The position numbers are program-made. Positions 45,599 to 51,600 of a stretch of DNA of 64,000 nucleotides are shown piece by piece; within the stretch, counting starts at the first letter, position 1; each line of letters starts with the position of its first letter. This stretch comes from Octopus vulgaris (taxonomy: Eukaryota): positions 106,888,001-106,952,000 of the forward strand of contig OX597817.1 of assembly GCA_951406725.2 (NCBI GenBank), in the 5' to 3' direction.

Positions 45599-45631
<33 letters not shown>

Positions 45632-48600
45632 TTTAAATATTTGTTGTGCAAGATTTTTTATGTGAAGTCGTGTGTTGAAACAGATATTGTTATATTTCGG
45701 AATGGTCATATTGCCAGTTTAGCCAATAAAAACACACGCACTATATATTTGGTGTTATTTTGCTTCAGTGATATTTATTTTTTACATTAATCTTAATCTT
45801 ATTTCGGCCAAAGTTCTTTCGTCACACTCCTGTGACCGCATGAGTGGTCCTTTGTTTTCTTCTCACTTACTTGTGTCTCTCCTTACTAACCGTCAGCCAT
45901 TTTGTATTTCTATTGTATGTCTTCATTTGCGCATGCTTATATCTCTATGTGCGTCTATGTTTATTTAGTGTGTGTGTGGGGGGGATGCCTGTAATATTTG
46001 TATCTTCTGGTTATATACATTCTTGTAATTTGTATTTTGTTTTTGTTGTTGTTGCTTTTGTTCTAATTTTGTTCATGTGTTTACATCCACCCATTATCAT
46101 CATTACATATGCTTGTATGTATGTATAACAACAATATTAGTAATAATAATAATAAATCTAATCGAAAAAAAAAAAAAAAAAGAATATACATATACACATA
46201 TATATATACATACACATACATATACATATATATATATATACATATATACACACATATATACACATATACATATATATACACATATACATATATATAGATA
46301 TTCATTTCTATTTCTTTAATTACCTGTGTATTTATTATGTTTGCAGGATCCACTATTGTCATATGTTGTGGTGTGCGCTATTGCTCCATTCTAGTTTTCT
46401 ATTCAGGCTAGGTTTATTTTCTATTATATGTGTAGCTTCTGTAATTTGTCTAATTGTTGCATCTGTTCTATGTGTGGACAATATCTTAATCTCTATGTTA
46501 TTGATTGATCCCCCGTGTTCTTGTTCGGCGTGTTGGTACAGAATCGATGAGCTTTTACCTTCCTTGAGTTGTCTCCAATGTTCATTCACCCGCTCACCAA
46601 TGCTTCTTGCAGTTTCCCCTACGTATGTTACTGTCTTGTTACTGCATTGTCCCTCTATACATCTTATACTATAGACCACATTTCTGGCTTTACAGTTCGT
46701 TTGTGGGCTAAATCTACATACAGTGCAATAGTTATCCGTACAGAGAGTTCTACTAAAAGGATAGCTTCTACCAATTATAGATCTGATAGGGTTGCCTGGC
46801 TTTTCAACAACCTTAATTCTTAGTTTAAGTTTATCTAGGGTCCTTCTAAAGCGGTACGCTAGTTCACCTCCAGGGGTGGTGTCAACGAACATGACACTCT
46901 GGTATTTATGGCTATCATACCAAGAGTTGGCCTTCCCTATTTTCTTTTTTTTTTTTTTTGTCCTTTCTATAGTGTTCCATGACTTGTTCCTATAGAGTGG
47001 GCAAATCCCATTCCTATCATTACATAATATATTATCAAATTTTTTCATGGCTCCTTTGTATACTCTGATCCTTTCTTTATGGCTGTAACCTGAGAACTGC
47101 ATGCGGTGAATGAAATACTGTATGTGTCTCTTTAATTCTGTAGGCTCGCACATGCGTGACACATTTCTCATTATTCTGACGAGGTCTGCCATCAAAATAT
47201 TGAATTTGGCATTGCCCGCAATGGCTGAGTTCCGGTGGATCAGGTATTTTGAGGCCATAGGTTTTGCATAGTATGAATGAAGGATTTGGGTTTGGGTTTG
47301 GGTTTTATTTTTTACAATTTCTAGCCAGAGTTCAGTGTCTAGTACTGGTAGTCTATGGTTGGGGTGTTTAGTGGGGTAGTCTATTGTGACCTTAATACTC
47401 TGGTGGATGGAGTTAGCTATTTGCTGGATGCTCTCCATAGTATTAGTTTCTATTACTATATCAACAGTACTCTCTTGTGGGGGTGCCTTTACTACTATAT
47501 TGATATCATCAACATAGCGAGAGTACATGTTTACGAGTATGGATTTCTGCAGTAGGCATTCTTTAAGCCTTCTGTCCCACCATACCATGAAGAGGTTGGC
47601 CACATCACCAGCGATACTAACACCGATGGCTGCCCCCTCGTCCTGGGCATATATTTTATTATTAAATTTAAATGTGTGGCCTTTTAGGGTAACTCTTATA
47701 CTAGCTCCTAGTGCATGTGCGATCATTTTCTTTACCTGATGGACATTTGCGGGGCTCCGTATGGCTCTGGTCCATCCGCGCCATCTTTCTATATGTGTCT
47801 TCCTAGCCATAGAAGTAATTGTAGGCGGTCTACCTCTTAAACATCTACTGGGGCAGAAACTACTAAGATTATGTTTATCTAAGTATTCACTATTATATGT
47901 CAGTCTAAGTAGGAGGCCCAGTTCTTCTGTGTCGACATTACAGAACTCCACCTGGCTCTCGTTGATCATCTCCACGCACTTCTCCACTGCAAAATCTACG
48001 TCAATCGATGGGTATAGGGATACCACATCCATGCTACCTACTATACATCCTGTCAAGTCACAAGTTTTGTTACAGTCACTGATCCTGCTTAGGAGATCTT
48101 CTGTGCTGTCACACACATCAGGTGACATCCTGATTATAGGGCGTATGATCATTGAGAGGAAGTAGGAGATTCTGTAATTGCTAGCGATATTCGCTCCACA
48201 GACTGGTCTTGTTGGTGGTCCTGCTATAGGGTCAGTAAAACCTTTATGGTCCTTGCGAAGTCCATACAGTGCTGGGATATCATTGTTCCAGGCTTGGAAA
48301 TTCTTTGCAGTACGTTTCTGAGGTCCCAGAACAATTGTCCACATCATCATGTGGGCATTGAGGACCTTTTCTCTCTCCTCATGCGCCTGTACAGTTGTTA
48401 CTTTTGTATTGGCGATATGAGGTTGCATTGCCTGGATGTAGTTCGGTAAGCTGTCTATTGACATCCTGCCGGACTTATCTGTGGGAAGGCATATCACCTC
48501 TCCGTTCCTCGTGCGCTGAATGAGCTTCTGTAGGCCACATGCAGGTTTAATCCCTAGTTGTTGGGCATCTGTCTTATTCTGTCTCTGTCTCTTAATGTAT

Positions 48601-51600
48601 AATCCTAAAATCTGTCTAAGTTTGGTCCTAGCTATAGTGAACTGTGCTTCCATGTGGTCATTAGTACGTCTTGGGATGTATACTCTTTTGTTGAAGGGTA
48701 ATGTTGTTGGATAAATTCGGTTCATGCAGTAAGTTTTGTCGCATACGTTGAAGAATTGAGTGTCAAAGGGATGGGTATACATGTCAATGGTCTCTCTAGG
48801 GTTATCTTCATTATCGTTACTGTTTCCAACATCAGCCTTCCTATTATTATTATCACCATTACCACTACTACTACTACTAGTATTCCTATTACCACCACAA
48901 TTAATACTACTATCCTCATTACTACTTCTACTGTTACCATCACCACTACTACTACCACTATTATTGTTATTACCTTTATTCCTACCATTGCCATTATTAC
49001 TATCATCGCTAGTGATATATTCATTGTTCCTGTTTCTGGTATATGTGTTGTTTATATTAGTGTTGGGTTTTATGTCTGTCTGTTGGTCCCTGTCAATCCC
49101 CCTGTTGCGGTCGTTATTTTTGTTCCTATGAGTATTGTTATCTGTTTCAAGTCCGCTGACTCCCTGTCCAAGGATCCTGTTGCATTCAACTTTATTCTCC
49201 ATCGCGACCCCTATGACACAACTTTTATTCGTGTCTTTGTGACTATGGCTATCTGTGTGTGTGTTTGTGTGTCGGTTCTCCCTATAATTGTTGTTGTTGT
49301 TGCTGTTGTATACGATTTTTCTCTCTCTGTTTGTGTTTTTGTTTTTGTATCTATTGTTTGTGTCTATGCATACATTTTTTCTATTGTTATTGTTGTTGTC
49401 GCTGTTAGGGTTGTTGTTGTTGTTGCCGCTGTTAGGGTTCGTGTTGCTTTTGTTGCTACGGTTGTTATTGTTGCGGTCATTATTGTTTGTGTTGTTGTTG
49501 CTGCGGTTAGTGTTTTTCTCTGGCTAGAAATTGTGAAAAATAAAACCCAAACCCAAACCCAAATCCTTCATTCATACTATGCAAAACCTATGGCCTCAAA
49601 ATACCTGATCCACCGGAACTCAGCCATTGCGGGCAATGCCAAATTCAATATTTTGATGGCAGACCTCGTCAGAATAATGAGAAATGTGTCACGCATGTGC
49701 GAGCCTACAGAATTAAAGAGACACATACAGTATTTCATTCACCGCATGCAGTTCTCAGGTTACAGCCATAAAGAAAGGATCAGAGTATACAAAGGAGCCA
49801 TGAAAAAATTTGATAATATATTATGTAATGATAGGAATGGGATTTGCCCACTCTATAGGAACAAGTCATGGAACACTATAGAAAGGACAAAAAAAAAAAA
49901 GAAAATAGGGAAGGCCAACTCTTGGTATGATAGCCATAAATACCAGAGTGTCATGTTCGTTGACACCACCCCTGGAGGTGAACTGGCGTACCGCTTTAGA
50001 AGGACCCTAGATAAACTTAAACTAAGAATTAAGGTTGTTGAAAAGCCAGGCAACCCTATCAGATCTATAATTGGTAGAAGCTATCCTTTTAGTAGAACTC
50101 TCTGTACGGATAACTATTGCACTGTATGTAGATTTAGCCCACAAACGAACTGTAAAGCCAGAAATGTGGTCTATAGTATAAGATGTATAGAGGGACAATG
50201 CAGTAACAAGACAGTAACATACGTAGGGGAAACTGCAAGAAGCATTGGTGAGCGGGTGAATGAACATTGGAGACAACTCAAGGAAGGTAAAAGCTCATCG
50301 ATTCTGTACCAACACGCCGAACAAGAACACGGGGGATCAATCAATAACATAGAGATTAAGATATTGTCCACACATAGAACAGATGCAACAATTAGACAAA
50401 TTACAGAAGCTACACATATAATAGAAAATAAACCTAGCCTGAATAGAAAACTAGAATGGAGCAATAGCGCACACCACAACATATGACAATAGTGGATCCT
50501 GCAAACATAATAAATACACAGGTAATTAAAGAAATAGAAATGAATATCTATATATATGTATATGTGTATATATATGTATATGTGTATATATGTGTGTATA
50601 TATGTATATATATATATATGTATATGTATGTGTATGTATATATATATGTGTATATGTATATTCTTTTTTTTTTTTTTTTTTTCGATTAGATTTATTATTA
50701 TTATTACTAATATTGTTGTTATACATACATACAAGCATATGTAATGATGATAATGGGTGGATGTAAACACATGAACAAAATTAGAACAAAAGCAACAACA
50801 ACAAAAACAAAATACAAATTACAAGAATGTATATAACCAGAAGATACAAATATTACAGGCATCCCCCCCACACACACACTAAATAAACATAGACGCACAT
50901 AGAGATATAAGCATGCGCAAATGAAGACATACAATAGAAATACAAAATGGCTGACGGTTAGTAAGGAGAGACACAAGTAAGTGAGAAGAAAACAAAGGAC
51001 CACTCATGCGGTCACAGGAGTGTGACGAAAGAACTTTGGCCGAAATAAGATTAAGATTAATGTAAAAAATAAATATCACTGAAGCAAAATAACACCAAAT
51101 ATATAGTGCGTGTGTTTTTATTGGCTAAACTGGCAATATGACCATTCCGAAATATAACAATATATATATATATATAATTGGAAATTACAAGAAAACGAAA
51201 GACAAAGACAGGTGTATAAGCAACAAACAGGTGTATTAGTTTAACGCCCAGAAAGGTGAGAAAAGTATTTTATATTTCAAGCCTACGCTCTCCAACAGAA
51301 AGGAACATGAGAAAATAAAGAGAGAGAGAATAAAAAACTTTAGTAGTCAATATATAAAGTAGTACTTCCCCTTTTTATGGAAGACTGGAAACAAACAACA
51401 TCACATGACAAAACAAGGGTGTACACAAACACATACATGTGTGTGTGTGTGTATTTGTATATCACAATATATACACAATGGGCTTCTTCCATTTTCCATT
51501 TACCAAATCCACTCAGAAGCTCTCAGAAGGGCTATAGTAAAAGATACATGCTCAAGATGTCATGTAGTGGGACTGACTGAGAGCACACAGCCCTCTCTCT

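What the first reader, a model, noticed from the sequence alone, without database searches (positions are those of the whole stretch)
45631..51163. Very young PLE with an intact RT-GIY-YIG ORF and a 1.65-kb head-to-head inverted arm
Seen: a 947-aa stop-free ORF in a window where every other TE is decayed. Arms 45684-47330 and 49518-51163 differ, by my base-by-base reading, at only 2 substitutions and 2 homopolymer lengths. The junction is at 49517/49518, the left arm has 53 extra terminal bases, and both ends sit in (TA)n. Established: PLE insertions often show inverted or tandem pseudo-LTR arrangements. Inference: a recent insertion from a possibly active family, made by priming from both target strands or by a template switch. 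Any read-through transcript would fold into ~1.6 kb of dsRNA.
Basis: partly seen in the sequence, partly recalled or inferred. Interest (0 to 1): 0.8.

Follow-up and report, generated by a model that had tools for sequence, protein, structure and literature searches.

The report
Young octopus Penelope-like retrotransposon, inverted pair
A recently inserted Penelope-like jumping gene, probably in an octopus genome, sits head-to-head with a shortened second copy of itself, which is a typical arrangement for this class, so it is a clean but fairly ordinary example.

Summary
The arms 45684-47330 and 49518-51163 differ by 2 substitutions and 2 homopolymer lengths. The minus-strand frame 46359-49523 is open for 1054 codons, 947 aa from the first ATG.

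The protein is a Penelope-like element (PLE) reverse transcriptase fused to a C-terminal GIY-YIG nuclease:
- The family profile matches a canonical PLE-like protein at E 2.5e-36.
- The three best PDB fold matches of the whole model are telomerase TERTs.
- The best fold match of the nuclease model is I-TevI.

The host is probably Octopus vulgaris, which has records 100% identical over 247-248 aa.

The anatomy fits published PLE features: an inverted 5'-truncated copy at the 5' end, a tail at one end only, and (TA)n on both sides. It also fits the in-vitro finding that a PLE protein cleaves and extends both target strands from two alternative start sites (PMC8557442, PMC11167929).

Caveats:
- This copy lacks the N-terminal block its relatives carry.
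- It has no pseudo-LTR.
- It has no hammerhead core.

The family has about 70 extra residues at the telomerase IFD position and fits none of the published clade descriptions. Young PLEs in O. vulgaris are already in print (PMC13282606). Interest is modest.

The parts
45549..45630 (.). (TA)n microsatellite on the left flank; presumed half of the target site
   Evidence: TRF finds period 2, 40.5 copies, at 45549-45629. The sequence was read.
45631..45683 (-). 53-nt 3'-terminal extension ('tail') present only on the long copy; A+C rich (36 of 53 bases)
   Evidence: It is absent from the right arm, which goes straight into (AT)n. It matches the one-sided tail of PLEs (PMC8557442), which PMC11167929 explains as the stretch between two RT start sites.
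45684..46358 (-). 3' UTR of the long copy. It contains an internal (TATG/TACA)-type microsatellite at 46184-46301 and a homopolymer run.
   Evidence: It lies downstream of the stop at 46359-46361. No Rfam match to any hammerhead at E<=10.
46359..49523 (-). Open frame of 1054 codons plus stop, stored as P0001. The ATG-to-stop ORF from Met108 (49202) is 947 aa; from Met248 (48782) it is 807 aa.
   Evidence: It keeps 99 of 104 columns that are at least 85% conserved in relatives.
48783..49523 (-). N/S/T-rich low-complexity 5' part (78 Asn in 247 residues), standing where relatives have a conserved N-terminal block. Coding status is uncertain.
   Evidence: Composition is and repeat families D5/D6. 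tblastn with 11 relatives' N-termini finds nothing upstream of about 48836. The antisense frame is open too.
47244..48281 (-). Reverse transcriptase core (residues about 415-760), with motif A at D499, motif B at Q627 and YVDD at 670-673
   Evidence: Motif positions are, invariant columns. hhalign to PLE-like P0064 gives E 2.5e-36. TERTs are the three best PDB fold matches.
47745..47930 (-). About 62-residue well-folded insertion between RT motifs A and B, at the position of the telomerase IFD
   Evidence: A-to-B spacing is 128 aa here and 112-141 aa in 100 of 104 proteins, against 58-61 aa in 4 canonical PLE-like proteins. There is a gap in the hhalign alignment. Block pLDDT is about 90-97.
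46389..46745 (-). Cys-rich linker (C928-X4-C933-X2-C936) plus GIY-YIG nuclease. Features are Y951, two Cys (955, 960) between GIY and YIG, Y967/G969, R978, H982, H998, E1029 and N1041.
   Evidence: Conserved columns are. The AF2 model has pLDDT 87.5. PDB fold ranks 1-11 are all GIY-YIG nucleases; the best is I-TevI 1ln0_A with TMt 0.74 and rmsd 2.8.
49517..49518 (.). Head-to-head junction. The 5' end of the long copy abuts the truncation point of the inverted copy, with no target sequence between them.
49518..51163 (+). Inverted, 5'-truncated second copy (1646 nt). It holds the last 322 codons plus stop (to 50486) and the 3' UTR, without the 53-nt tail.
51164..51177 (.). Short (AT)n on the right flank; presumed other half of the target microsatellite

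Best explanation
Window 45631-51163 is one insertion of a Penelope-like retrotransposon (PLE) into a (TA)n microsatellite, in a genome that is Octopus vulgaris or very close to it.

Shown:
- The long copy lies on the minus strand at 49517 down to 45631. It encodes a telomerase-like reverse transcriptase fused through a Cys-rich linker to a C-terminal GIY-YIG nuclease.
- A second, 5'-truncated copy lies inverted against its 5' end, so both 3' ends point outwards into the target.
- Shown, then, are the anatomy, the protein folds and the youth of the family.

Inferred:
- The element's nuclease cut both strands of the AT-rich target.
- Each free 3'-OH primed reverse transcription of element RNA. 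One cDNA started at the distal start site and so includes the 53-nt tail; it ran 3.9 kb. The other started at the proximal site, has no tail, and stopped after 1.65 kb.
- The two 5' ends were then joined by host repair.

Age: the two arms differ at 2 of about 1646 sites. On the octopus calibration quoted in PMC13282606 (JC 0.09 for 25 My), that is roughly 0.2 My, by my own arithmetic, with a Poisson range of about 0.02-0.6 My.
For: Structure: the arms, junction, tail and flanks are as stated.

Protein:
- The family profile A2 (40 sequences) against PLE-like P0064 gives hhalign probability 99.9 and E 2.5e-36 over 683 columns, from the N-terminal motifs to the linker.
- The AF2 model of residues 250-1054 has pLDDT 87.6. 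Its PDB ranks 1-3 are TERTs (6zdq_A at 2.3e-8, 3du5_A, 6zdu_A) and rank 4 is a group II intron RT.
- The nuclease model has pLDDT 87.5. Its ranks 1-11 are all GIY-YIG enzymes, led by I-TevI.

Youth and activity:
- 99 of 104 conserved columns are kept.
- 10 of 11 short database hits are O. vulgaris records on chromosome-sized contigs, in clusters of 26, 15, 8 and 4 or fewer members.
- Two of them are 100% identical to this ORF over 247-248 aa and two are 99.6% identical.

Literature:
- PMC8557442 (section 6 passages and the Fig. [quoted passage not shown]
- PMC11167929 (abstract and whole main text read): the Poseidon PAc protein cleaves and extends both top and bottom strands, starts RT at two adjacent internal sites with the tail lying between them, prefers AT-rich DNA, and starts in an AC-rich region.
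Against: - The dual-priming step is borrowed from a different PLE clade (Anolis Poseidon) in vitro. Nothing here shows it for this family.
- The tail is 53 nt, not 30-40.
- No pseudo-LTR (direct partial tandem) is present, though it is the commonest PLE arrangement.
- There is no hammerhead ribozyme: none in Rfam at E<=1 over 44500-52500 or at E<=10 over 45631-46160, and no CUGANGA anywhere on the sense strand. PMC8557442 says canonical hammerheads are universal in PLEs other than Naiad/Chlamys.
- The copy lacks the N-terminal block of its relatives, so it may not be autonomous.
- Two events at the same spot, or gene conversion between the arms, would blur the age estimate.
- No raw reads were available to confirm the assembly.
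Confidence: 0.7

Rival explanations
1. There were two separate insertions of the same young family. A 5'-truncated copy landed first in the (TA)n tract. A second copy later inserted in the opposite orientation exactly at its truncated end, or the order was reversed.
For: PLEs favour (TA)n and AT-rich DNA, and also their own sequence (PMC8557442 passages; PMC11167929 main text), so repeated hits at one site are plausible. The two arms use different 3' ends. Many near-identical copies exist in O. vulgaris.
Against: No target or (TA)n sequence lies between the copies; the junction is direct. The arms differ at only 2 of about 1646 sites, so both events would have to be very close in time. The published description treats this arrangement as a recurrent product of PLE insertion.
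Confidence: 0.17
2. It is an assembly artefact. Either a fold-back read produced the arm, or two different genomic copies of a young repeat were mis-joined.
For: Two of the four arm differences are homopolymer lengths, a typical long-read error. PMC8557442 notes that these structures cause assembly problems. A second near-perfect palindrome lies 0.8 kb away at 51968-53000.
Against: A fold-back would put the axis of symmetry at the junction and mirror the left flank. Instead the arm ends at the element's own 3' end, meets (AT)n and continues into unrelated sequence. The arms also carry two real substitutions. A mis-join of two loci is not excluded.
Confidence: 0.08
3. It is a later inverted segmental duplication, or a snap-back or template switch of one cDNA, not a second priming event.
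For: RT template switching is known for related enzymes. A group II intron RT template-switching complex is fold match rank 4, which is resemblance only.
Against: A snap-back gives complementary sequence immediately on both sides of the junction. Here the left side is the unique low-complexity 5' region and the right side corresponds to internal position 47330. A random duplication would not end exactly at the element's 3' boundary next to (AT)n.
Confidence: 0.05

Closest known systems
Neptune / Nematis-type Penelope-like elements (C-terminal GIY-YIG with a CX2-5CxxC linker)
   Same: - One ORF with RT followed by a Cys-rich linker (C-X4-C-X2-C) and a GIY-YIG nuclease with two Cys between GIY and YIG.
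- A (TA)n target.
- A complex inverted insertion with a tail.
   Different: - No hammerhead core.
- About 70 extra residues between RT motifs A and B.
- DKS instead of DKG.
- This copy lacks the N-terminal GxKF-type block.
- The RT is barely seen by Pfam RVT_1: E 0.0028 here, and 9 of 40 family members at E<=1.
- No phylogeny with named references could be run.
Naiad PLEs (PMC8557442)
   Same: - No canonical hammerhead.
- An insertion at the IFD position.
- (TA)n targets.
- A nuclease with both Zn-finger-like motifs.
- An inverted 5'-truncated partner and a tail.
   Different: - Naiads carry the nuclease at the N-terminus with a CxC linker and DKA; here it is C-terminal with DKS.
- The Naiad IFD is about 20 aa; here it is about 70.
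- The paper says cephalopod Naiads are old remnants.
Poseidon PAc of Anolis carolinensis (PMC11167929)
   Same: As a mechanistic model: cleavage and extension of both target strands, two RT start sites that define the tail, AT-rich targets, and an AC-rich start region (the tail here is 68% A+C).
   Different: - It belongs to a different clade, Penelope/Poseidon, which has no linker.
- It has tandem pLTR organisation and a working hammerhead.
- Its N-terminal helix is predicted to dimerise, and this octopus copy lacks the corresponding region.
LINE-1 twin-priming inversions (recalled, no paper read here)
   Same: Both target strands prime reverse transcription, and the two cDNAs are joined head-to-head.
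   Different: Twin priming copies one RNA into two non-overlapping pieces. Here the 1.65-kb arm fully duplicates the 3' part of the long copy, so two full initiations at the 3' end are needed.

Membership tests
Penelope-like elements (class) | Reverse transcriptase of the PLE/telomerase-related type | tested here: met
   hhalign of the family against PLE-like P0064 gives probability 99.9 and E 2.5e-36 over 683 columns. PDB fold ranks 1-3 are TERTs. P0064's PLE nature rests on its precomputed Pfam labels PF28514 and PF26215, not on a curated name.
Penelope-like elements (class) | GIY-YIG nuclease in the same ORF, with the CCHH motif (two Cys between GIY and YIG) | tested here: met
   Fold ranks 1-11 are GIY-YIG enzymes and I-TevI has TMt 0.74. 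C955 and C960 lie between Y951 and Y967/G969, and H982 and H998 are conserved. Pfam GIY-YIG itself matches only 4 of 40 family members and not this protein.
Penelope-like elements (class) | N-terminal motifs (GxKF/Y block and DKG) | tested here: inconclusive
   The DK motif is present as DKS (D349, K350 nearly invariant). The GxKF-type block is PPKF in relatives. It is absent from this copy in all three frames.
Penelope-like elements (class) | Pseudo-LTR from a partial direct tandem | tested here: not met
   No direct repeat of element sequence occurs in 44000-53000 or elsewhere in the window. The literature calls pLTRs usual, not obligatory.
Penelope-like elements (class) | Inverted 5'-truncated copy at the 5' end, and a tail at one end only | tested here: met
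   The tail is 53 nt against the published 30-40 bp.
Penelope-like elements (class) | Hammerhead ribozyme motif | tested here: not met
   No hammerhead family in Rfam at E<=1 (8 kb) or at E<=10 (3' UTR). There are zero CUGANGA on the sense strand.
Neptune / Nematis clades | CX2-5CxxC linker plus CCHH nuclease | tested here: met
   C928-X4-C933-X2-C936, conserved across the family.
Neptune / Nematis clades | No IFD; canonical hammerhead present | tested here: not met
   A-to-B spacing is 128 aa against 58-61 aa in 4 canonical-like proteins. There is no hammerhead.
Neptune / Nematis clades | Placement inside the clade in an RT phylogeny with named references | not testable with these tools
   No named PLE reference sequences (Repbase) are reachable. 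The tree has only unnamed relatives.
Penelope/Poseidon clade | No Zn-finger-like linker between RT and nuclease | tested here: not met
   The linker is present.
Hydra clade | CCHH absent, linker CxCX5C, DKT, length under 3 kb, canonical hammerhead | tested here: not met
   The CC pair is present, the linker is CX4CxxC and the motif is DKS. The element is 3.9 kb. There is no hammerhead. Only the (TA)n target agrees.
Naiad / Chlamys clades | GIY-YIG at the N-terminus, joined by a CxC domain | tested here: not met
   The nuclease is C-terminal.

The most novel reading that the evidence does not exclude
The octopus element may belong to a large PLE lineage that is not one of the eight named clades. 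Its features are:
- A C-terminal CCHH GIY-YIG nuclease with a Neptune-type linker.
- A conserved, well-folded insertion of about 70 residues at the telomerase IFD position.
- No hammerhead core.

The lineage is widespread: 2017 cluster representatives at E<=1e-10 and 312 at E<=1e-30, though an unknown share of the 2017 may be ordinary PLEs of the named clades. Named relatives come from octopus and a sea cucumber.

In octopus it still multiplies after replacing the N-terminal block, which is predicted to dimerise in another PLE, with low-complexity sequence.
Probability: 0.3. Interest if true: 0.55.

Novelty: new member of a known kind. Interest (0 to 1): 0.33.

Why it matters
As a locus it is a clean natural example of what was shown in vitro for one PLE. 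Both target strands were used as primers, and the two alternative start sites were each used once in a single insertion. That gives a concrete template for a genome-wide census in octopus.

It does not change what is known. Inverted partners, tails and (TA)n targets are published for PLEs. PMC13282606 Table 1 lists 336 recently active PLE insertions in 31 families for Octopus vulgaris.

The family-level traits would matter more if confirmed. An IFD-position insertion in a PLE with a C-terminal nuclease, and the loss of the hammerhead, both bear on the PLE-telomerase link and on whether hammerheads are needed.

Tried and rejected
- **Hammerhead search.** Rfam at E<=1 over 44500-52500 gave only microRNA-like hits on simple repeats and on the neighbouring palindrome. 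Rfam at E<=10 over 45631-46160 gave nothing relevant. A string at about 45812-45845 (minus strand) resembles a core with two mismatches by eye, but its fold is no better than shuffles (z -0.35). I dropped it.
- **Other copies in the window.** There are none (blastn and tblastn).
- **Search for the missing N-terminal block.** tblastn of 11 relatives' N-termini against 47500-52000 at E<=10 gave only noise upstream of about 48836. Database searches with residues 50-300 gave P0002 alone among near-length proteins (1 of 4150 candidates). Among shorter proteins they gave 11 hits, of which all 10 O. vulgaris records I aligned or printed (9 of them from this search) start at Met248.
- **P0217.** This unnamed 225-aa record is 67% identical to residues 55-142. 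Its N-rich stretch begins after unrelated sequence at about the same distance, which hints that 49517 is near the family's true 5' end. That is one case only, and Pfam finds nothing in it.
- **Pfam on this protein.** Only a weak RVT_1 match.
- **PDB by sequence.** The single protein gave nothing useful. The family profile hit only bacterial defence RTs at motifs B-C.
- **FastTree of 60 rows.** It places the octopus protein inside a 32-row subclade (support 97) on a long branch. It separates the 4 canonical-like rows, but it has no named clades and carries long-branch warnings, so it gives no clade assignment.
- **Snap-back and fold-back readings.** I rejected both on anatomy (see rivals).
- **ESM Atlas.** Neighbours carry HTH_animal, DUF8422 and GIY-YIG labels. 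I used this as a lead only.

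
Full report
**1. The observation**

The window has no N.
- The repeat finder reports three collinear inverted segments (I1-I3) that together span 45684-47330 and 49518-51163.
- blastn aligns the two arms over 1649 columns at 99.576% identity, with 2 mismatches, 2 gap openings and 5 gap positions.
- A global alignment puts the substitutions at 46860/49985 and 47313/49535. It puts the indels in an A run (2 nt, 46165 versus 50681-50682) and a T run (3 nt, 46945-46947 versus 49900).
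- Both substitutions are third-position synonymous changes. The 3-nt indel adds one Lys to a Lys run.
- On the minus strand, 46359..49523 is open for 1054 codons. The next Met is residue 248.
- The long copy has 53 further bases (45631-45683) before an (AT)n array at 45549-45629. The right arm runs directly into (AT)n at 51160-51176 and then into unrelated sequence.
- Such arrays cover only 537 of 64000 bp.

**2. What the protein is**

Pfam sees only a weak RVT_1 match (E 0.0028). Across 40 family members at E<=1, RVT_1 matches 9 and GIY-YIG matches 4, so the family is divergent. Three independent tests settle the identity.
- A profile of 40 members aligns to the canonical PLE-like protein P0064 with probability 99.9 and E 2.5e-36 over 683 columns. 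The alignment runs from the N-terminal motifs through RT and thumb to the linker.
- An AlphaFold2 model of residues 250-1054 (pLDDT 87.6, pTM 0.86) has telomerase TERTs as PDB ranks 1-3, followed by a group II intron RT. This agrees with the published sister relation of PLE RTs and TERTs (PMC8557442 abstract).
- A model of the last 145 residues (pLDDT 87.5) has only GIY-YIG nucleases at ranks 1-11. The best is I-TevI, with TMt 0.74 and rmsd 2.8 over 93 columns.

The sequence shows C-X4-C-X2-C upstream of the nuclease and two Cys between the GIY and YIG strands, with conserved R, H, E and N. These are the linker and CCHH features described in PMC8557442 (Introduction and section 6 passages).

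**3. Host and family**

- The best hit is a 'Hypothetical predicted protein [Octopus vulgaris]', 97.5-98% identical over 800 columns.
- Ten of 11 short hits are O. vulgaris records on contigs of 58-226 Mb, in clusters of 26, 15, 8, 4 and fewer members.
- Two of them are 100% identical to this ORF over 247-248 aa and two are 99.6% identical.
- The exhaustive search found 7297 cluster representatives at E<=0.001, 2017 at E<=1e-10 and 312 at E<=1e-30.
- The ORF keeps 99 of 104 columns that are at least 85% conserved among at least 30 relatives. Three of the five misses lie in the missing N-terminus.

The family is therefore large, and in octopus it is multicopy and young.

**4. Departures from an 'intact canonical PLE'**

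(a) The N-terminal block is missing.
- All 11 of the 11 relatives in that 16-sequence alignment that reach that far, and also P0183, carry a conserved block of the type YGG...LPPKF...LRW about 45 residues upstream of the LPFNKRV motif.
- In this copy the corresponding place is about 250 residues of N/S/T-rich low complexity. The block is found in no frame.
- The frame is open up to the junction, and the antisense frame is open there too. Openness there is therefore weak evidence of coding, and the start may be Met248. Met248 is the start of all 10 O. vulgaris gene models I aligned or printed.
- One unnamed record (P0217) suggests that a related copy has its 5' boundary at about the same place.

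(b) There is no direct repeat and hence no pseudo-LTR.

(c) There is no hammerhead.
- Rfam finds none, and there is no CUGANGA on the sense strand.
- PMC8557442 (section 15 passage) states that canonical hammerheads are universal in Hydra and other PLEs, except Naiad and most Chlamys.

(d) RT motifs A and B are 128 aa apart here.
- The spacing is 112-141 aa in 100 of the 104 proteins in which my regular expressions found motifs A, B and C. It is 58-61 aa in the 4 canonical-like proteins.
- The extra segment is confidently folded.
- It lies where PMC8557442 places the IFD. That paper describes an IFD of about 20 aa for Naiads and says it is absent from PLEs with a C-terminal nuclease.

**5. Mechanism**

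PMC8557442 (section 6 passages and Fig. 2 legend) describes insertions with an inverted 5'-truncated copy adjacent at the 5' end and a 30-40 bp tail, often at one end only.

PMC11167929 (abstract and whole main text read) shows the following for a purified Poseidon protein:
- It cleaves and extends both top and bottom strands.
- RT starts at two adjacent internal sites.
- The tail is the sequence between those sites.
- It prefers AT-rich DNA and starts in an AC-rich stem-loop.
- The hammerhead is not needed for insertion in vitro.

The locus maps onto this. Both 3' ends face the (TA)n target. One has the tail (68% A+C) and the other does not. The 5' ends meet without intervening target.

A snap-back is excluded because the two sides of the junction are not complementary. 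A fold-back artefact is unlikely because the arm ends at the element boundary and continues into a different flank. Two successive insertions, or a mis-join of two copies, remain possible.

Age:
- From 2 differences in about 1646 sites, and the calibration quoted in PMC13282606 (JC 0.09 = 25 My, JC 0.2 = 56 My; passages seen), my arithmetic gives about 0.2 My.
- That is an upper bound if RT errors contributed to the differences.
- It is a lower bound if gene conversion homogenised the arms.

**6. Comparison and novelty**

At class level this is a PLE. At clade level the published diagnostic features do not fit any one clade.
- Penelope/Poseidon: fails on the linker.
- Hydra: fails on CCHH, linker form and DKT.
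- Naiad/Chlamys: fails on nuclease position.
- Neptune/Nematis: fits the nuclease but fails on the hammerhead and the A-B insertion.

A 2026 preprint still lists eight clades (10.64898/2026.07.22.740005, passages seen). My search for later clade descriptions found none. I could not run a phylogeny with named references, nor see the supplementary alignments of PMC8557442, which may already cover such families.

Young PLEs in O. vulgaris are in print: 31 families and 336 'recently active' insertions (PMC13282606, Table 1 passage).

I therefore file the locus as a new member of a known kind. I give a 0.3 chance that its family is an undescribed PLE lineage.

**7. Left unchecked**

- Raw reads.
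- DNA of other copies.
- The closed metagenome and viral collections.
- Paper supplements.
- Transcription, dsRNA and small RNAs.

Noticed in passing
window 51968-53000 (with 51860-52053): A second near-perfect palindrome of about 1 kb lies 0.8 kb to the right of the element. Its arms are 98-99% complementary and its centre is near 52483 with a 35-nt spacer. It is built from SINE-like sequence that recurs at 53893-54199. The PLE does not explain it. The microRNA-like Rfam hits at 51891-52022 come from a smaller neighbouring hairpin (arms 51860-51950 and 51963-52053, 87% complementary), not from the 1-kb palindrome.
   Followed up: partly
window 37657-40191 (-): Ty3/gypsy-like pol remnants are split by stops into frames of 351, 294 and 143 aa. 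They carry RVT_1, RNase H and integrase Zn-binding domains, in a stretch of higher G+C (0.44).
   Followed up: partly
window 29283-29870 (+) and 59625-60554 (+): There are two further retroelement fragments. One is an integrase H2C2 piece. The other is a 309-aa frame with the end of an RT domain followed by a PHD-like finger.
   Followed up: no
window 46860/49985 and 47313/49535: At both substitutions between the arms, the long copy has A and the inverted copy has G on the sense strand, at synonymous third positions. Two sites are too few to tell ordinary transitions from editing of the RNA template.
   Followed up: no
window 46184-46301 and 50544-50661: The element carries its own (TATG/TACA)-type microsatellite and a long homopolymer run inside the 3' UTR, next to the stop codon. 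One of the two arm indels lies in that run.
   Followed up: no
window 48702-50486 (+): A 594-aa open frame runs antisense through the low-complexity 5' region of the long copy and then in sense through the inverted arm's C-terminal coding part. It is a chimeric frame created by the junction and is not evidence of a gene.
   Followed up: yes
proteins P0053, P0055-P0060 (not in the window): Distant relatives of 1432-1748 aa share the long motif A-B spacing (129-130 aa) and have YMDD. They form one well-supported group in the quick tree, so they carry extra unexplained domains.
   Followed up: no
protein P0048 (not in the window): An O. vulgaris gene model named dynein regulatory complex subunit 6-like starts with 149 residues that are 98% identical to this element's RT. 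It is probably an annotation chimera with an inserted copy.
   Followed up: no
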